From: a virus
Lineage: Duplodnaviria; Caudoviricetes
Strand: one strand, 5' to 3'
IMG/VR virus record: IMGVR_UViG_3300035140_000027
Coordinates: 1-47,636 of that record
DNA: 47,636 nucleotides
The notes beneath the pieces are model-generated. The model was not told where the DNA came from, made no database searches, and saw only the letters and a list, made by a program, of their open reading frames with translations. The first letter of the stretch is position 1, and each line of letters begins with the position of its first letter. Positions 1 to 47,636 of this stretch are shown in pieces. The position numbers and the translations under genes are program-made.

Positions 1-16
1 GTACGCATATAAACAC
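1..16. repeat. Left copy of 16-nt terminal direct repeat (gtacgcatataaacac); candidate cohesive end
   Basis: Identical to 47621-47636; after circularisation it is flanked by ggcgag / cgcgcc, forming a partial dyad. Confidence 0.9.
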
Positions 17-246: not shown

Positions 247-630
247 TCAGTCTTCGGTGGGCTTCACCCAGTCGACCCGGCGCGGCGCACAGCAAACACA
301 GTTCGGAGCATTCCGAAGCGTGCCGCCCCCGTCAATACATGCCTGATTCTGAGCATGAGAATAGACGCATTCTTCATTTCTATCATGTGAACAGATCGGC
401 TCTGATGTATCCGTGTCACTATCACTATCGGAGTCGCTGTCCGTGTCGGTATCCGTATCCGTATCACTGCCACTGTCCGTATCGGTGTTGGCATCCGTAT
501 CTGTGTCACCGCCACTATCACTATCCGTATCGGTATCGCCGGCATCAACCGTTTCGTCATCCCCACTGTAGTACTTACTAGGCTCCTCATCGCATCCGAT
601 CAAAAGTATTAAAAAAACTAGGTATTTCAT
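247..630 (-). CDS. Lipoprotein with Asp-Thr/Asp-Ser low-complexity linker and small Cys-rich C-terminal domain
   Basis: MKYLVFLILLIG-C lipobox-like signal, (DT/DS)n tract, C-terminus with 6 Cys; start moved to MKYL. Confidence 0.7.
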   Translation of the reverse strand: MKYLVFLILLIGCDEEPSKYYSGDDETVDAGDTDTDSDSGGDTDTDANTDTDSGSDTDTDTDTDSDSDSDSDTDTSEPICSHDRNEECVYSHAQNQACIDGGGTLRNAPNCVCCAPRRVDWVKPTED

Positions 631-782
631 GCCAAACCTCAAAAAATGCTCCACCCGGGCTGTTGTGTCGGGATAGATTCCCGCCCAGGTGAAGCGCAAA
701 GTTTTCCTGTATTTCCCGACACAACTTAATTATTGTGCAACATTTCCATGTTTTTTCAAGCAAAAAGCGTTAGGATAGCGGT

Positions 783-6245: not shown

Positions 6246-6515
6246 TTAGTCCATCCCTCCTTTCAAGCCTTCTTTCGCCTTGAACGCCTTAAAGTCCAGC
6301 ATCTCAAGCGCTTCTATGTCAGTTCTGACTGCTGGCTTGTCCATTTTCTGGATACGCCTCACGGTATCCAATATTCTCGTGTGTACCTCAATCCTCTTAT
6401 CCTTGACCGCCTGAATGATATTCAGGCAAAGTTCACGTTGGTACCTGATCTCCTCGATCTTCATCTGGCTAGTGCCCATACCGGAAAACATTTCATGGTT
6501 TATGTCGTTCATCAT
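6246..6515 (-). CDS. Hypothetical protein
   Basis: SD aaggag; 89 aa. Confidence 0.6.
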   Translation of the reverse strand: MMNDINHEMFSGMGTSQMKIEEIRYQRELCLNIIQAVKDKRIEVHTRILDTVRRIQKMDKPAVRTDIEALEMLDFKAFKAKEGLKGGMD

Positions 6516-6538
6516 ATTGATTCTCCTTTGTTTAGCCG

Positions 6539-6595
6539 TAACCGGCCGCCACTGCCACCCATCTCCTGGGAGATGAGTGGGGTGGGGGTCGGTTA
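6539..6595. other. Long imperfect intergenic hairpin
   Basis: taaccggcc...ccacccatctc-ctgg-gagatgagtgg...ggtcggtta. Confidence 0.5.
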
Positions 6596-6772
6596 ATCTA
6601 GCGCGTCAATCTGCTCTTGAGTCAGGAGCACAGCCTTCGCACCGATCCATGTGAGATTTCTTTCCGTTGCTTCTTTGCGCGCGTTTTCACGAGACCCTTT
6701 TTCTCGACCGTAAGTCCTTACCAATCTACCATCTTCTACCACTGCCCATTGTCTGTTTTTCTGATTTGTCAT
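6593..6772 (-). CDS. Hypothetical protein, first gene behind the sigma54-like promoter
   Basis: SD aaggag before MTNQKN. Confidence 0.6.
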   Translation of the reverse strand: MTNQKNRQWAVVEDGRLVRTYGREKGSRENARKEATERNLTWIGAKAVLLTQEQIDALD

Positions 6773-7003: not shown

Positions 7004-8299
7004 TCAATGATATCCAGCTCGCTGGTAATCACCAACGTGCATGTGCTGTAGGTCGCAATGAAGACGCAGTTTGCCAGTCCGTCCATGCGAATTCTTCGAT
7101 ATGATAAAAGTCAATTCGTTCTCATCCTTCGATTCATCGTAATATCTCGGACGATGAAGCAACCAGACCACCCGCGCGAGCTGTTCGAGCTCTCCGGTCT
7201 GCCGGAGATCGCCAAGCTCGGGAATTTTTGAAGACCGCTTTTCCGTCTCTCGGCTGAGTTGATGAAGACAAAGCACGGGAATGTTCATCTGTTTAGGAAT
7301 CTCGACAATCGTCCGAGCTGCCGCCGTTGTTGACTCGTAGAGGTCTTTTCCCTTGTCACGGAGATGCCCAAGGTGGTCGATGACCAGTAGGTCAAGGCCG
7401 TGCTCGTCCGCGTGCCTAAATGCAACATTTCGAACATCGGCCGACGTCATTGACGTGGTGTCGTCAATCCAGATTGGAAGACATCCAACGACATCACGAA
7501 CATTGTGAAGTAGTGTTCGCTCTTCAGAAGACAACCGTTTGGCGACAATACGGTCTAGCGCGACATTTGCAAAACGCGCGAATAGCCGGTACAGAATGAA
7601 GCGTCGTGAATCCTCAGGGCTGACAATCAGTACATGTTTGCAAGCCAATGCGGCATTGGCAGCGATATTGAGGGCTAGGGTGCTTTTCCCCATCGACGGC
7701 CGTGAAGCCAATACGCTGAGCAACCCGGGCCACAACCCGCCGAACTCTGCGTCAATGGTTCCAATGCCGGTTTTGACCAATCCTGCCGGCTCACCCTGCT
7801 CTTCGAGCTCCTGAAGTGTACTGTCTATCAGGCCAGAGATAGCGATAGCATTCGAGCTTTTAACTTGCTGGTCGGCAACTCCCGTTACCGCGGCCCGGGC
7901 CCTGGCGAGGAAGTCTGGAGTGTCGATGGATTGTTTGGTCCCATCCTCGACGATATTTACCGCGGCCTGTATCATGGCACGGCGATGACTCAGCTCGCGA
8001 AGCTCGTTAAGATAGTGATCGAAGTTTGCGGTCGTGGGCAATTCATCCGCAAGATGGTTTAACCCCTCCATACCGCCGACAAGGCGCTTCTCATCGTCAC
8101 CAAGGGCCGAAAACAGTGTGACCGGGTCAACCGGCTTACCTTCTACCAGGAGAAGTTGTGTCGCCTTGTAGATGGTCTGATGCGGCACATGGTAGAAATC
8201 ATCGGCCTCAAGTTCAGCAAAGAACCTTCCGAGTCGGTTGTTTACGATAACGGCACCGAGTACGGCCCTTTCGGTCTCTATGCTGCGTGGAAGCTGCAT
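7004..8299 (-). CDS. dnaB: Replicative DNA helicase, DnaB family
   Basis: LPRSIETERAVLG N-terminus, Walker A SRPSMGKST, LVIDHL, QLSR, DLRQTGELEQ, KNSHG. Confidence 0.95.
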   Translation of the reverse strand: MQLPRSIETERAVLGAVIVNNRLGRFFAELEADDFYHVPHQTIYKATQLLLVEGKPVDPVTLFSALGDDEKRLVGGMEGLNHLADELPTTANFDHYLNELRELSHRRAMIQAAVNIVEDGTKQSIDTPDFLARARAAVTGVADQQVKSSNAIAISGLIDSTLQELEEQGEPAGLVKTGIGTIDAEFGGLWPGLLSVLASRPSMGKSTLALNIAANAALACKHVLIVSPEDSRRFILYRLFARFANVALDRIVAKRLSSEERTLLHNVRDVVGCLPIWIDDTTSMTSADVRNVAFRHADEHGLDLLVIDHLGHLRDKGKDLYESTTAAARTIVEIPKQMNIPVLCLHQLSRETEKRSSKIPELGDLRQTGELEQLARVVWLLHRPRYYDESKDENELTFIISKNSHGRTGKLRLHCDLQHMHVGDYQRAGYH

Positions 8300-9051
8300 C
8301 AGGTGTCCATCCCGTATTTAACTGGAGCCAGTTTTGGCTTTGACTGCTCGGCCTGTTTCCGGATCGTGTTCTTCAGGCAATTCATCAGCCACTGGTGCAG
8401 CTTGTTTCGGCCTTGAACGTACACTGGATCATTAGGCGATCTACTGGTCGCCACTTCTTGTATCCATTCCAGCGGTTCTTCTTCGAGCTGGAGGAGGTAG
8501 TTCTTTGCCTGCTCCACCCATGCGATTGCGTCTTTGGCTGTACAGTCAGGCCATGCAGTTAGGATGAACTTCGCTAATTGTCTGTCTTGTTCTACTGGAA
8601 GAAACTCCAATGCTTCATCGATTGGATGTAGATCGACTTTCGATGTCTCCTCAACTTGATCCTTCGATGTCTTATTTTTTTTATATATATATTCTGTCTC
8701 TCTCTCTATCTCTGTCTCTGTCTCTGTCTCTGGATCAGCACATTGCTCCACTTTTGCTAGCAAGCTGCTATCATCATAAGCAATCCAATGTTTTAGTTTG
8801 CTTATATGTCCTGCTAGCACTGTGCTATCAATTCGCAAGCGCCATGCTATCTCATCGAGTGACGGTAAATTTCCGCCCTTCGCCTTATCCTCTGCTGCAA
8901 GCATCCAAAGAAAAACGAGTGTCTTCACGACGTCACCCTCAAGATCGTTGAATTCTTTGTCATCCAGAAGCTTGCGATGAAGTTTTATCCATGGCGGACA
9001 TCTGTCCTTGTAATGCTGAAATTCGTGCCAGTTTTTAATTCTTAAGGCCAT
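8299..9051 (-). CDS. Phage replication initiator protein
   Basis: NWHEFQHYKDRCPPWIKLHRKLL N-terminal domain, ETETE linker, coupled to dnaB, internal iterons. Confidence 0.8.
   Translation of the reverse strand: MALRIKNWHEFQHYKDRCPPWIKLHRKLLDDKEFNDLEGDVVKTLVFLWMLAAEDKAKGGNLPSLDEIAWRLRIDSTVLAGHISKLKHWIAYDDSSLLAKVEQCADPETETETEIERETEYIYKKNKTSKDQVEETSKVDLHPIDEALEFLPVEQDRQLAKFILTAWPDCTAKDAIAWVEQAKNYLLQLEEEPLEWIQEVATSRSPNDPVYVQGRNKLHQWLMNCLKNTIRKQAEQSKPKLAPVKYGMDT
8671..8852. promoter_or_regulatory. Putative replication origin: four AGC(A/G)-N3-TGCT iterons plus AT-rich tract
   Basis: Cores at 8737, 8759, 8816, 8838 (spacing 22/57/22); AT run 8671-8694. Confidence 0.65.
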
Positions 9052-9260
9052 GGCGTACCTACGAGAATGTACTCATAGCGATCATCCCAAACGTCTACGG
9101 TACCCTTGTATCCGCTGATGTCGTTCAATTCCTGGACGACGATGCCGAGCAGAGGCTCACCGCGCACGCCGTCTTCGCGTTTGTCGCAGCCGTAGACGAG
9201 CCATGCGACCTTGCGGCCGCTGTTCGCGCCATGTACCGACAGCTTGAAATATCCACCCAT
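9042..9260 (-). CDS. Small ORF carrying a circularly permuted 58-codon portal fragment
   Basis: 9065-9238 equals portal 43618-43663 joined to 43482-43617 with 2 mismatches; in frame; purine-rich SD gaggggag; overlaps the rep start. Confidence 0.55.
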   Translation of the reverse strand: MGGYFKLSVHGANSGRKVAWLVYGCDKREDGVRGEPLLGIVVQELNDISGYKGTVDVWDDRYEYILVGTPWP

Positions 9261-9278: not shown

Positions 9279-9497
9279 TTAAGCCATCGAGGTATCACTC
9301 GTCTGTTCGGTTTCAATTGGAAACGCGCTAGAGTCTATTAATTCATCAATATCCGACTCTTGATATCGAACCGTGCATCGAATACCATCTCCAAACTTTA
9401 ATGCTCTCAGTTTCCCGCCTCTGGTCCATCGGCGAATTGTTTCAACATGAACGGATAATCTATCGGCCACTTCTTGTGCGGTGAGCAGTTTTGACAT
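9279..9497 (-). CDS. Excisionase-like / HTH_17 DNA-binding protein
   Basis: LLTAQEVADRLSVHVETIRRWTRGGKLRA; SD aggaggt. Confidence 0.85.
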   Translation of the reverse strand: MSKLLTAQEVADRLSVHVETIRRWTRGGKLRALKFGDGIRCTVRYQESDIDELIDSSAFPIETEQTSDTSMA

Positions 9498-9676
9498 ATC
9501 GGCATACCTCCTGCGCAATAGCGCAAATTAACTGCTAAAAATGTATGGCCAGTGAGCTGGAAAATATCCTTTTGATTTATGGGGCGAATTCAAAAGCAAA
9601 AAAATTGGTGGCAGTATTGTTCCAAATATGTAAAACAAATGGCGGCAAAAAAATGCTTTGGCCACCCATAAAATAT

Positions 9677-9705
9677 TTGACAGCAAAATTGGCAGCAATT
9701 AGGCT
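9677..9705 (+). promoter_or_regulatory. Sigma70 promoter for the rightward early operon
   Basis: TTGACA-17 bp-TAGGCT. Confidence 0.7.
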
Positions 9706-9768
9706 CTGATTATGGCCAGTGAGGTGCGGCGACGGCGAGGTGATCGAGATGCGCAAAAAGGAGGAGGT

Positions 9769-10008
9769 ATGAACACCGAAAGGACAATCAAGGCTGAACG
9801 AGAAGCTGTTGCAAAGCATCTTGACAAAATAGCAGCCGAACACCGAGAGAAGGCCGTCGAGATCCGAAGGCGCCTATGGAGAAAGAACGACTCAATCGAT
9901 ATTAAGTTTGACAACTGGCTTGTCTATATGCATGAAACGCAGGCAATCGAGATTGATCACGCGGCATTCCATATTTTGCTCGGTCGACACGTGGAGGGCA
10001 GTGAATGA
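9769..10008 (+). CDS. Hypothetical protein (alternative leaderless start at 9712)
   Basis: SD ggaggaggt before MNTERT. Confidence 0.65.
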   Translation: MNTERTIKAEREAVAKHLDKIAAEHREKAVEIRRRLWRKNDSIDIKFDNWLVYMHETQAIEIDHAAFHILLGRHVEGSE

Positions 10009-18680: not shown

Positions 18681-19088
18681 ATGAAAAAGAAACTCCGATG
18701 GAGATATTATTGCGACTACTGCAATGCGAGTAGAGGCACGCGACAGTCAATGGAGCACCACGAAGAGCGGTGCACGATGAATCCGAATCGAAAATGCGGC
18801 CTGTGCGGTATCCGCTATGGCGGATATGGATACTTGGATGAATGCCTCGATGTTCTGAATCCATATCTGGAATTGGCTGAAACAGGAGAGGATCTTCCAA
18901 GGAGCGTTGCTGATAAACTGAGAGAGGTGTCAGATGGCTGTCCGGTATGCATCTACGCTGCGTTAAGGCAACGTGGTTTTATGTCGCTTCAGCTGCCAGG
19001 GTTCAATTACGAGTCCGAATCGAAATCAATGTTCGATGATGCCATGGACGACATCCATCAAGAAAAGATGAATGCCTCGATGTTCTGA
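18681..19088 (+). CDS. Cys/His-rich Zn-finger protein; C-terminus made by the duplication
   Basis: YYCDYC...HEERCTMNP...CGLC, GCPVC. Confidence 0.65.
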   Translation: MKKKLRWRYYCDYCNASRGTRQSMEHHEERCTMNPNRKCGLCGIRYGGYGYLDECLDVLNPYLELAETGEDLPRSVADKLREVSDGCPVCIYAALRQRGFMSLQLPGFNYESESKSMFDDAMDDIHQEKMNASMF

Positions 19089-19258
19089 ATCCATATCTGG
19101 AATTGGCTGAAACAGGAGAGGATCTTCCAAGGAGCGTTGCTGATAAACTGAGAGAGGTGTCAGATGGCTGTCCGGTATGCATCTACGCTGCGTTAAGGCA
19201 ACGTGGTTTTATGTCGCTTCAGCTGCCAGGGTTCAATTACGAGTCCGAATCGAAATCA
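18837..19258 (+). repeat. 192-bp perfect direct duplication (18837-19028 = 19067-19258)
   Basis: Base-by-base identity, 38-bp unique spacer. Confidence 0.95.
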
Positions 19259-41528: not shown

Positions 41529-42656
41529 CTATACCTCCCCCCACTCGAGGCCATCGCAGCCTTCTTCTATCTCCGCTTTTTCTTTCGCAAACGCGGTTAC
41601 GACCGGCGCATCTCCGTTGGTGTTGATGTCCGGCGGGTTGTCGGCGGCGCGTGCGGCTATCAGACTCTTATTCCGTGCAAAAGCCTGATGCTTTGCCTCC
41701 ACTTTCGGGCCGTACTCGTCGCCGGCGAGAATCGCTTTGTGTGCCGCCTCCACGTCGCCGTTCTCGGCTGCGATCAAGTGTGCCTCGACGCGGTCTCTCT
41801 CCTTTTCGGAGCCCTTTTTTGAGCCCGCCGCCTCGCCAAGCGCGAAAACCTGGGCATAGAGCCCGGGGTATTCTGCCTTGAGTTGTTCCAGATCCATGGA
41901 TTTCGCTCCTATTGCTGCCGCCTTGGATTTGGCGGGCTGGTTTTGCGGCATGATCCCGTCGATCATGCCTTTGGATAAGGCCGTTCGGGCGGTCATTACC
42001 GCGCCCTGGCCGTAGTTTTTCTTGATGTTTTCGACGGTTGTTTTTCGGCCGACTGCCATCTTTTCGGCATAGATCGCCCAGAAGTCGTCAAGCTCGTCCA
42101 CAACAACCTTTTTCCCCTCGTCAGTGCTTACGTCAGGGCGTTTCTTTTTGCTATCGCTGTTTGTGAGGTCAACAATACTGTCTGATATATATGCCCAAGT
42201 GGCAATGCCGATGCTGCCGACGTTGGACGCCGGACTCTCGACAATTATTTCTCCGGTCTGCGACGCGAGCATATAAGCTGCAGACGCCAGCGTATTCCCG
42301 GCAATCGTTCGAGTAGGAATATCGACGGATGCGATGGCCAGCATTGCGTCATACAGTCCATCGATGTGTCCACCGGGACTATCTATCTCAAAATCAATGC
42401 TTTTAGCTCCCTTGTACTGAGCTTCCGCTACATCTGCAATGATGTCCGAATACACCGTGTGGTTTTCGCCCCAATAATCCATCCATGAGTTTCTTTTGGG
42501 GTACAGTGGGCCTTTGATTTGGATAGTCGCTACACCATTTTTGAGCTTGACCGGTTCTCGCTCTTTTGCTTTTGCTTCGGGCTCAGGCATGCCGAGAACA
42601 GCCGCGAACATTGCAGCCATCCGATCAACCTCATACTGTAGCATAAACAGCTTCAT
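41529..42656 (-). CDS. Prohead protease/scaffold, peptidase S49 (gpC-like)
   Basis: IDSPGG, ASAAYMLAS, VGSIG, ALSKGMIDG; C-terminal MDLEQLKAEYP scaffold-like region. Confidence 0.9.
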   Translation of the reverse strand: MKLFMLQYEVDRMAAMFAAVLGMPEPEAKAKEREPVKLKNGVATIQIKGPLYPKRNSWMDYWGENHTVYSDIIADVAEAQYKGAKSIDFEIDSPGGHIDGLYDAMLAIASVDIPTRTIAGNTLASAAYMLASQTGEIIVESPASNVGSIGIATWAYISDSIVDLTNSDSKKKRPDVSTDEGKKVVVDELDDFWAIYAEKMAVGRKTTVENIKKNYGQGAVMTARTALSKGMIDGIMPQNQPAKSKAAAIGAKSMDLEQLKAEYPGLYAQVFALGEAAGSKKGSEKERDRVEAHLIAAENGDVEAAHKAILAGDEYGPKVEAKHQAFARNKSLIAARAADNPPDINTNGDAPVVTAFAKEKAEIEEGCDGLEWGEV

Positions 42657-44338
42657 GCGGCCGCTTTCTCCTCTCTGGATTCGCCGCCGATATGGATGCC
42701 GGCGAGCGCTGCCACGTCCTTCACTTTGTCCGCTCCAAATTGTTGTTGGAGTTCGAGGAGCGGCCGCATGGCTTTCGCCAGCATCGCGTTTTCTTCCTCT
42801 AGAATCTCCACGTTGTCGGCGAACTTGGTACCGTTGACGGCGCGGGATATGCGGTCATTAGTGTTCCAGCCGTTCTTCACCTGGATCTCAAAGCCTTGAC
42901 CTTGTTTTTTCATGTCGGTGGTTGGCTTAACAGAGCCAATCCATTCTACCTTTATCCATGCGCGTTTGACGTCGTACTGTTGCGGATTGTAATAGGCATC
43001 GATAAACCCGGGCGCTTCGATTTTGCCGATCAGCACTTCGGATACCTGCCACCCCTCAGCCATGTTCTGACAGTGCTCTACGGAGAACCGTGCACGCTCC
43101 ATCATTAGAAACATGATCCACTCATTAAGCGCGGCCTGTGAGGCATTGAACGCCTTGTGGAACGATAGCGTAAGTATCTCCGGCGGAATCTGTAGCGCCC
43201 AGGCCATACCGGCCACAATCGCGGCCTCGAACGGGCCGAAGTTGACGTCTGAACCGCTGATGGCGTACGCCGAGAACTCTTCCCCTTGCGAAAGTTCTTC
43301 GGCCCAGAACCCAGGGAAAAGCTCATTGACCCGCACCTTGCGCGTTGAATCCTTCGGATCGGTGGCAACTGTATGTTGCCTGCCCGCTCCTTGGCTGATT
43401 GGAAGTGATGGCAACGCGCCAGTTGTGTTTTTGACGGAACCAACGATCATTGCGTTGATCTTTGCCTTTAAAAGGCTACTCCCCTTGTATCCGCTGATGT
43501 CGTTCAATCCCTGGACGACGATGCCGAGCAGGGGCTCACCGCGCACGCCGTCTTCGCGTTTGTCGCAGCCGTAGACGAGCCATGCGACCTTGCGGCCGCT
43601 GTTCGCGCCATGTACCGGAATGTACTCATAGCGATCATCCCAAACGTCTACGGTACCCTTGTAGACGTAGTAGCCGACGTGCCGGCCTCGGTTGTCGATG
43701 CGGACACCGTCGATTACATTCGGATCTAACGCGTGCTCCGGCGGCGTCTGAACGCGGTCCCCGTTGACAATTTGGATTTGGGGTAGACCGGTAAATGGAT
43801 CTTGTCGATTGATGACCAGGCAGTCACCATTGATAAGCGCTTCGAGGTATATCTGAGCCTGCAAATCACCTTCGGATCGGGTGCCCTTGGCGTCCACGAT
43901 TTCGGGGGAATTACAGTATAGATCATATCGCTGCTCGTACAGTTTCGCGTACGCTTTGGCCTGCTCCTTGGTGATGCCGAGGATTTCATGATTGAGGCGC
44001 CACTCCGGTCGGAGACCGGTGTGAATGACGTTGGTGACGTATCGGCGGAGCATTCCGCGGGCGTACATGTTGCTGTAGAACAGCGCTGCGGAGCGTTGGC
44101 GTAGCGTCCAGTAGTCCAGGTTTCCGATCTCGTCGACAAATCCGCTTACGCCGCGCCAAAATATCGATCCATCAAAAGTGCCGGTAGGCGGGGATGCGTA
44201 TTGCGTCGACGCTTCGACCTGCGGCGAGGACTCGGCTGCAGGCTCCGGCTCCGGAGGCGGAGGGGGCGGCGATGCGGATGCCGGCCACGTCCAGGGCTGT
44301 TCCTCTTCGTAGATTTCGCGTCCCCAACTCACCGTCAC
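42653..44338 (-). CDS. Portal protein, lambda family
   Basis: LRQRSAAL...YARG, GVRIDNRGRHVGY, VRGEPLL, NASQAALNE. Confidence 0.92.
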   Translation of the reverse strand: MTVSWGREIYEEEQPWTWPASASPPPPPPEPEPAAESSPQVEASTQYASPPTGTFDGSIFWRGVSGFVDEIGNLDYWTLRQRSAALFYSNMYARGMLRRYVTNVIHTGLRPEWRLNHEILGITKEQAKAYAKLYEQRYDLYCNSPEIVDAKGTRSEGDLQAQIYLEALINGDCLVINRQDPFTGLPQIQIVNGDRVQTPPEHALDPNVIDGVRIDNRGRHVGYYVYKGTVDVWDDRYEYIPVHGANSGRKVAWLVYGCDKREDGVRGEPLLGIVVQGLNDISGYKGSSLLKAKINAMIVGSVKNTTGALPSLPISQGAGRQHTVATDPKDSTRKVRVNELFPGFWAEELSQGEEFSAYAISGSDVNFGPFEAAIVAGMAWALQIPPEILTLSFHKAFNASQAALNEWIMFLMMERARFSVEHCQNMAEGWQVSEVLIGKIEAPGFIDAYYNPQQYDVKRAWIKVEWIGSVKPTTDMKKQGQGFEIQVKNGWNTNDRISRAVNGTKFADNVEILEEENAMLAKAMRPLLELQQQFGADKVKDVAALAGIHIGGESREEKAAA

Positions 44339-46809: not shown

Positions 46810-47461
46810 CTTCGAGCAGGGCTTTTTTTATGTCTCGCTTTAGCGGCTTGATGAGAGATGACAGTTCGCCCCGTACGGCAACTTCGACATCCTCCCTTGG
46901 TACCCCCTTCTCTCCTCTGAGCTCGGCCTCTATTCCAGACCGAATGAGGGCGTAAGCGGTAGACGTGATGGTCTTGGCGCCGTCGGTCTGTATGCGGACA
47001 AGAAATGTTTCCAGTGGATTCCAGACGCCGCGGATCATGACCTCGCGGGCAACGAGTCTGCCCTCTATTTGGGCGTTTTTGAGCTCCAATTGCTGCGCTT
47101 GTGCGGCGAGTTTTCGACGCTCAAGCGTGAGCTTGTTCATTGCGCTGGAGATTTCTTCGTCGTTGTACTCTCGTTCGGTGGGTGGCTGAGGTGGCGGTTT
47201 CGGCGTCGATTTTAATTTGTCCGGTATTCCATCGTCAATTTCATCGGCTGACGACTGGGTAGAAATACTGCCGATTTTTACCCCATTTTTCACTACCCCT
47301 TTTCTCTTCAATCTCTTCTTGATATAGGCTTGTGTTCTTTCGTCATCCAGATCTATGCCGCCGTCTTTCTCGGTGATTACGCCACGTTTAGTAGCCATTG
47401 TAACCGCGCTACGTGTCAGTCTGTAGATTTTCGAAAAGTCGTTCTTTGATACTATGCCCAT
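46796..47461 (-). CDS. Terminase small subunit (Nu1-like)
   Basis: N-terminal wHTH (SKNDFSKIYRLTRSAVT), LELKNAQIEGRLV coiled coil; upstream of terL. Confidence 0.8.
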   Translation of the reverse strand: MGIVSKNDFSKIYRLTRSAVTMATKRGVITEKDGGIDLDDERTQAYIKKRLKRKGVVKNGVKIGSISTQSSADEIDDGIPDKLKSTPKPPPQPPTEREYNDEEISSAMNKLTLERRKLAAQAQQLELKNAQIEGRLVAREVMIRGVWNPLETFLVRIQTDGAKTITSTAYALIRSGIEAELRGEKGVPREDVEVAVRGELSSLIKPLKRDIKKALLEDVQH

Positions 47462-47620: not shown

Positions 47621-47636
47621 GTACGCATATAAACAC
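47621..47636. repeat. Right copy of 16-nt terminal direct repeat
   Basis: Identical to 1-16. Confidence 0.9.

What the first reader, a model, noticed from the sequence alone, without database searches (positions are those of the whole stretch)
9042..9260. Circularly permuted 174-bp copy of the phage's own portal gene, in frame in an early minigene
Seen: 9065-9110 equals portal 43618-43663 and 9103-9238 equals portal 43482-43617. The two pieces join through an 8-bp microhomology (cccttgta, the YKG codons) that occurs twice in the portal gene exactly 174 bp apart. The copy is the exact circle those repeats would excise, reopened at 43617/43618 with no base gained or lost. It has only 2 substitutions (9130 Gly>Glu; 9153 synonymous). 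It is in sense orientation, keeps the portal reading frame (residues ~226-283, permuted), follows an SD-like sequence and overlaps the rep start. Inference: a DNA microcircle (or a double template switch) captured a late structural-gene segment into an early operon. If translated, this early portal-mimic peptide could be a decoy against portal-sensing defences such as Avs4, or could interfere with portal assembly of related phages. It may also be a neutral scar.
Basis: partly seen in the sequence, partly recalled or inferred. Interest (0 to 1): 0.9.

Follow-up and report, generated by a model that had tools for sequence, protein, structure and literature searches.

The report
Phage portal microcircle reinserted before rep
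A wetland phage carries a 174-base piece of its own portal gene, with head and tail swapped, inserted just before its replication gene; it is likely the scar of a tiny DNA circle that re-entered the genome and is now drifting, not a defence decoy.

Summary
It recurs in a second, about 1% diverged strain, so it is not an assembly artefact. Relatives L004/L005 have the empty site: the insert is 174 bp, with no target duplication and no homology above chance. The 'minigene' is the leftover start of an older rep gene (L006/L012 keep it whole), so its SD and ATG predate the insert. The frame is unremarkable: 49 of 348 possible openings give it, or 49 of the 103 that stay open to rep. The copy looks unconstrained: three amino-acid changes against one silent change, two of them (G272R, G277E) to residues seen in 0 of 104 portal homologues, while three strains' portals are identical over these residues. 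The piece is wing strands plus half a helix, and its model is poor. Best reading: a microhomology-closed DNA circle was opened once and joined into a recombination-prone site; it is a neutral scar. This is the phage counterpart of eukaryotic circle-mediated duplication. Ten literature searches listed no phage case. The scan has noted permuted inserts on other DNA (unchecked). The Avs4-decoy idea is unsupported.

The parts
9065..9238 (-). 174-bp insert: one turn of portal segment 43490-43663, opened at 43617/43618
   Evidence: absent at the same site in L004/L005
9103..9110 (.). closing joint of the circle: 8-bp microhomology shared by portal 43482-43489 and 43656-43663
   Evidence: bridged by a contig of run X3
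9239..9260 (-). stub: first 7 codons of an older rep gene, kept after the rep N-terminal module was swapped
   Evidence: the same start opens a whole 323-aa rep in L006 and in L012
9268..9277 (-). purine-rich SD-like sequence before the stub, inherited (also present in L004, L005, L006, L012)
   Evidence: function inferred
9042..9260 (-). 72-aa ORF: stub (1-7), junction residue, portal 242-284, portal 227-240, junction residue, 6-residue tail overlapping the rep start
   Evidence: translation untested
8299..9051 (-). replication protein gene (phrog_26426, E 4e-14), followed by a DnaB-like helicase gene at 7004-8299
9279..9518 (-). excisionase-like HTH_17 gene upstream of the stub
42653..44338 (-). 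intact lambda-family portal gene (donor)
   Evidence: PF05136; PDB 8k38 by profile and by fold
43482..43663 (-). donor segment bounded by the two 8-bp direct repeats

Best explanation
The insert is one exact, rotated turn of a 174-bp piece of this phage's own portal gene sitting in a leftover 12-codon stub before rep; it likely arose when recombination between two 8-bp repeats closed a small DNA circle that was then opened once and joined into the stub without homology, and it is likely a tolerated, drifting scar. Shown: the rotated copy, the 8-bp closing repeat, the empty site in relatives, the stub's origin as an older rep start, and the presence of the insert in two strains. Inferred: (1) the circle formed by microhomology recombination or slippage in a sister genome during replication; the phage encodes a RecE/YqaJ-like exonuclease, but no enzyme is shown to act; (2) entry was by end-joining or topoisomerase-type illegitimate joining at a break; (3) it survived because 174 bp in this frame leaves the stub ORF ending over the rep start, so any translational coupling to rep is kept; (4) the peptide is probably made but has no selected portal-like role.
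For: Exact unit length with the opening point restored on both sides needs no coincidence if the donor was a closed circle. The empty allele in L004/L005 shows no duplication or loss. Similarity between target and opening point is no better than other openings (52 to 327 of 348 score as well) or than shuffled targets. Short repeats able to close such circles are common: 405 pairs of 8 bp or more spaced 50-500 bp in the window. The site is exchange-prone: four different rep N-termini follow the excisionase-like gene or precede the shared C-terminus in relatives, one swap junction lies 2-4 bp from the insertion point, and the integrase 450 bp away has been deleted. Drift: known changes in the copy are G277E, G272R, D231N and one silent, i.e. 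3 of 4 non-synonymous against 78% expected under neutrality. Portal residues 226-284 are identical in 3 of 3 strain records. E at 277 and R at 272 occur in 0 of 104 homologues.
Against: The free circle has not been seen. Counts are tiny: 2 of 57 residues changed in the insert against 7 of 561 in the portal between two strains, Fisher p = 0.20. Silent changes in the second strain's copy are not known; two of run X3's differences are unplaced. The silent change at 9153 could have arisen in the portal. The insert appears in all four runs laid and no joint skipping it was listed, which could mean selection, though contigs drop rare variants. The nearest empty allele is only 85-92% identical, so the junction chemistry is not settled. 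Ku was not found in the 2 candidate-host genomes, of unknown completeness.
Confidence: 0.7

Rival explanations
1. Same product by a non-circular route: a 174-bp tandem duplication formed first in the portal gene at the same 8-bp repeats and one unit was cut out at the same sequence in both copies, or a polymerase switched template twice. Also a neutral scar.
For: The same microhomology makes a tandem duplication as readily as a circle (established knowledge). The opening falls inside the only CCGG of the unit, as a site-specific cut might.
Against: Template switching needs the copying to stop exactly one unit later. A 4-bp palindrome is weak evidence: the unit has 14 of them. An in-frame 58-residue duplication in the portal would probably be short-lived (inference).
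Confidence: 0.12
2. The 72-aa peptide is functional: an early portal mimic that blunts a portal sensor (Avs4, Avs11) or poisons portal assembly of rival phages.
For: Sense orientation, portal frame, a good SD and a place in the replication operon. The segment includes invariant portal residues R266, G267 and Q276. The insert is shared by at least two strains. Portal-sensing Avs4 and Avs11 exist (10.64898/2026.01.04.697583, passages).
Against: That paper's passages say Avs sensors recognise folds through extended interfaces, in contrast to short-motif sensors. The piece holds wing strands 237-241 and 252-256 and half of helix 270-297, in swapped order, without sheet strands 172-179, 186-192, 212-214 and most of 220-226. 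Its single-sequence model has pLDDT 53 (weak evidence, as no alignment was used). The copy carries G272R and G277E, absent from 104 homologues. No homologue of 39-126 aa was found beyond the one strain variant. The frame is a 49-in-348 event. A mimic could as well trigger the sensor (inference).
Confidence: 0.08
3. The insert was selected for its effect on rep expression (spacing, mRNA structure or coupling), not for its peptide.
For: It lies between the stub's SD and the rep start. The two other sense frames stop at about 9159 and 9127, well before rep. If the pre-insertion allele was L006-like, a 2-bp loss was needed to reach the open frame. The lineage has also lost its integrase, so its replication control may have changed.
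Against: Rep has its own SD-like AGGT, shared with L004. The empty allele already couples stub and rep through an overlapping stop and start. An open frame is explained by mere tolerance.
Confidence: 0.07
4. Assembly or amplification chimera.
For: Only 1 of 4 runs bridges the left junction by 31 letters or more, and no listed piece spans the whole stretch. Only contigs, not raw reads, were seen.
Against: The same junctions occur in four libraries and in a strain with its own substitutions inside and beside the insert. The copy has fixed differences from the portal. Three strain records carry a full 561-aa portal.
Confidence: 0.02

Closest known systems
eccDNA- or circular-intermediate-mediated duplication in eukaryotes (Takahashi and Innan 2020, PMC7188851, part 1 of 4 read; Chicote et al. 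2020, PMC7450558, abstract and section 7 read)
   Same: Donor order a-j reappears rotated, same orientation, at a distant site. Closing and insertion junctions show only microhomology or short indels. An empty acceptor site exists in an outgroup. Takahashi and Innan state that none of their cases seems to have created new gene copies.
   Different: Here it is in a phage genome. The unit is 174 bp rather than over 1 kb. The closing microhomology is 8 bp rather than 0-2 bp. The piece landed in frame in a probably translated ORF.
Minihomology recombination of phage T4 after CRISPR cutting (PMC8262927, passages)
   Same: Short direct repeats are used for recombination inside a phage genome.
   Different: The passages read report deletions and insertions of 1-5 bp; the word 'circular' occurs 0 times in the main text, and no reinsertion of the lost piece was seen in them.
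Illegitimate recombination and NHEJ as a source of phage mosaicism (PMC8136500, passages)
   Same: Homology-free joining is proposed for temperate phage rearrangement.
   Different: That work concerns gene flow between phages; this is a sub-gene piece moved within one genome in permuted order.
Portal-sensing STAND ATPases Avs4 and Avs11 (10.64898/2026.01.04.697583, passages; Gao et al. 2022 is recalled, not read)
   Same: The insert derives from the protein these sensors detect.
   Different: They are described as recognising folds. No portal-fragment decoy appeared. Nothing here links the peptide to them.

Membership tests
Circular-intermediate-mediated duplication | Donor blocks reappear in rotated order (AB to BA), same orientation, at a distant site | tested here: met
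Circular-intermediate-mediated duplication | Closing junction shows only microhomology or a short indel | tested here: met
   8-bp repeat at both donor ends
Circular-intermediate-mediated duplication | Insertion junctions lack long homology; the empty acceptor exists in an outgroup | tested here: met
   L004/L005 empty; no similarity above chance; 0 or 3 bp of microhomology depending on the ancestral allele
Circular-intermediate-mediated duplication | The free circle is observed | not tested
   No reads were laid on the portal gene; a circle and a tandem unit give the same joint
Mobile element (IS, MITE, integron cassette, repeat-bounded circularising cassette) | Terminal repeats, recombination hairpin or target-site duplication | tested here: not met
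   No duplication against the empty site; no inverted repeat of 18 nt or more listed there
Mobile element (IS, MITE, integron cassette, repeat-bounded circularising cassette) | Copies at several sites or in several genomes | tested here: not met
   One copy in the window; the internal joint pattern found 0 other viral contigs (near-identical genomes may be left out); no permuted repeat in self-comparisons of 3 relatives
Phage anti-Avs decoy or portal mimic | Keeps the sensed fold | tested here: inconclusive
   The piece cuts through a sheet and a helix of the portal model; the peptide model has pLDDT 53 without an alignment
Phage anti-Avs decoy or portal mimic | Purifying selection on the mimicked residues | tested here: not met
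   3 non-synonymous and 1 silent change known; two residues unseen in 104 homologues; counts too small for significance
Phage anti-Avs decoy or portal mimic | Expressed early, and binds or inhibits the sensor; host carries the sensor | not tested
   No RNA or protein data; the host is only a lead and was not searched for Avs genes

The most novel reading that the evidence does not exclude
Phages shed microDNA-like circles of 100-200 bp from their own genes and re-capture them, without homology, at a break-prone, translated slot ahead of rep. This would be a route to instant new peptides built from permuted self fragments, and this one could be an early-expressed portal decoy caught soon after birth.
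Probability: 0.1. Interest if true: 0.8.

Novelty: new variant of a known kind. Interest (0 to 1): 0.45.

Why it matters
It is an unusually clean, base-resolved footprint of a process documented in eukaryotic genomes, found in a phage with donor, copy, empty site and a diverged sister strain all in hand. It implies that the piece lost in a microhomology deletion can survive as a very small circle and re-enter a phage genome. That gives a concrete mechanism for some 'illegitimate' joints in phage mosaics and a searchable signature (rotated self-repeats). Its value is mechanistic; a single, apparently drifting event says little about function.

Tried and rejected
Related-locus searches: the stub pattern found 4 viral records, all without the insert, and 0 metagenome records. 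The rep-start pattern found only the two known empty-site records. The peptide query gave 3 loci: one is a strain portal fragment, one was checked and is an ordinary portal, one was not checked. None of the 7 metagenome rep loci matched from the rep start at high identity; two were inspected. No match in isolated phages. No Rfam hit in the window. No reverse transcriptase among Pfam hits of 63 ORFs, so an RNA-circle or diversity-generating-retroelement route was dropped. No RNA holder was listed; this is no evidence on expression. The sigma-70 scan found no site on the minus strand, so 'early' rests on gene content. Loose similarity between target and circle opening proved no better than chance. 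An antisense role was rejected because copy and portal lie on the same strand. Recombination between copy and portal would split the genome into 34.4- and 13.2-kb circles; contig depths in X1 show no excess of the small part (22.9 against 22 and 25.9), but depth is a poor measure and this was not pursued. The integrase query found no prophage in genome contigs. Ku was not found in 2 candidate-host MAGs, which does not show absence. No complex prediction was run, because a portal piece would tend to pass by likeness to solved portals. A script slip mis-numbered one peptide segment by one residue in its check line; D56 of the peptide is portal D231. Literature: searches listed no phage case of a permuted self-fragment insertion; most listed papers were seen as listings only, subscription papers are missing from the library, and no supplements were read.

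Full report
1. Observation. The window is a 47,636-bp IMG/VR virus record with a 16-bp terminal repeat. It has lambda-type head genes and a contractile-tail baseplate. The two matches are exactly as described: 46 bp identical and 136 bp with two substitutions, joined through an 8-bp word that bounds the donor segment on both sides 174 bp apart. Rotating 43490-43663 once reproduces 9065-9238 with two mismatches. The donor is a true portal gene (PF05136; lambda portal by profile and fold). The unit spans codons 226-284 and is opened in codon 241.

2. It is real DNA. Six runs hold 30% or more of the stretch's sampled words, all wetland metagenomes of 2020. In the 4 runs laid (contigs only, 18 piece rows not shown), the left junction and internal joint are bridged by 31 letters or more on both sides in X3, and the right junction in X2 and X4. 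Other pieces pass junctions by 30 letters. X3 differs from the window at about 1% of sites yet has the same insert. The protein collection holds the exact 72-aa peptide on 3 contigs and a variant (G39R, D56N, W71C) on a 45,608-bp record. That variant matches X3's change at 9048 and may come from the same sample, so I count two strains, not more. Three strain records have full-length portals.

3. The target. L004 and L005 (85% in the upstream gene, 92% in rep) align to the window on both sides of the insert with nothing added or lost. Their stub is a 12-codon ORF whose stop overlaps the rep ATG. In L006 and L012 the same start and SD open a whole, different rep gene. So the 'minigene' is what remained when the rep N-terminal module was exchanged; other relatives carry yet other modules. 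The SD and start codon are therefore no sign of selection for the new peptide. One swap junction lies 2-4 bp from the insertion point, and the integrase and attP that L004-L006 carry 450 bp upstream are gone, leaving 18 C-terminal codons at 9716-9769. The neighbourhood is rearrangement-prone.

4. Junction chemistry. Against L004 the join has no microhomology, and the target resembles the opening point no more than other points of the circle or shuffled targets. One alternative cannot be excluded: the window's right junction repeats 7 bases of the L006-type start, so a crossover at a shared 3-base word followed by a 2-base loss on the left fits too. In that case the loss moved the stub from a frame that stops near 9127 into the open portal frame, which would hint at selection for read-through to rep.

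5. Is the frame surprising? No. Of 348 openings and orientations at this site, 103 keep the stub open to the rep start; 49 of these are sense and in the portal frame, 54 antisense.

6. Is the peptide a portal mimic? In a confident portal model (mean pLDDT 82.6, 105 sequences) the segment holds two wing strands, loops and the first half of helix 270-297, and lacks most of the sheet. The permuted peptide models at pLDDT 53 without an alignment, which is weak evidence. Since copying, the insert has gained G277E in all strains seen and G272R and D231N in one; E277 and R272 occur in 0 of 104 homologues and N231 in 1. The nearest homologue keeps G277, so that change arose in the copy. The portal is unchanged over these residues in 3 of 3 strains. 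Three of four known changes are non-synonymous against 78% expected without selection; 57% of random replacements would give an unseen residue. This fits drift, but the numbers are too small for significance (p = 0.20), and silent changes in the second strain are incompletely known. The passages read on Avs sensors describe recognition of folds over extended interfaces, which a permuted 58-residue piece is unlikely to offer (inference).

7. Mechanism. Shown: rotated unit, closing repeat, empty site, stub origin, presence in two strains. Inferred: recombination or slippage between the 8-bp repeats released a 174-bp circle from one genome copy; the circle was opened once and joined into a break in the stub of another copy by a homology-free reaction; the product survived because it left rep intact and its upstream ORF ending over the rep start; it has since drifted. 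The phage encodes a RecE/YqaJ-like exonuclease, but no enzyme is tied to either step. The host lead is Myxococcota/Polyangia: the attP of L004 matches exactly in 2 genomes of that group, and the window's DTD-repeat ORF resembles repeats in one of them. Ku was not found in either.

8. Comparison. The anatomy meets the three sequence criteria of circular-intermediate duplication described for human genomes; the free circle was not tested. It fails the tests for a mobile element. It fails or leaves open the tests for a decoy. Ten searches listed no phage case, within a library lacking most subscription papers. The scan's own notes record permuted inserts elsewhere, including a gene cassette inside a phage gene (unchecked), and nothing for this genome or sequence.

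9. Verdict. A real and tidy fossil of a microcircle reinsertion in a phage: a new variant of a known kind, interest 0.45. The decoy reading stays possible at about 0.08-0.1.

Noticed in passing
window 9690-9769; L004 1057-2540; L006 570-2057: The tyrosine integrase and tRNA-type attP present in L004, L005 and L006 are deleted in the window. Eighteen C-terminal codons survive at 9716-9769, next to about 25-30 bp of unknown origin. No other integrase was found in the window. The phage may have lost lysogeny.
   Followed up: partly
window 8730-9260; L006, L012, L035, L036: The rep N-terminal module differs among relatives (at least four types) in front of a shared C-terminal half, with the right-hand exchange at the low-complexity ET/DT repeat.
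   Followed up: partly
window 18837-19028 and 19067-19258: Exact 192-bp direct repeat with a 38-bp spacer; not matched in the fetched relatives. A recent duplication or an assembly effect.
   Followed up: no
window 1-16 and 47621-47636: 16-bp terminal repeat; the record is probably a complete circle although classed as linear.
   Followed up: partly
window 247-699: ORF with Asp-Thr repeats; its DNA resembles 86 places in a Polyangia MAG (G007), consistent with that host lineage.
   Followed up: partly
window 6512-6598; G001 47330-47412 and 47654-47728: A GC-rich 87-bp element matches G001 at 74% in the opposite orientation and at an unrelated place, where it occurs twice; possibly a small mobile repeat or gene-boundary element.
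   Followed up: no
L042, L043: The 45-bp attP core of relative L004 matches exactly in two genomes, titled Myxococcota bacterium and Polyangia bacterium.
   Followed up: partly
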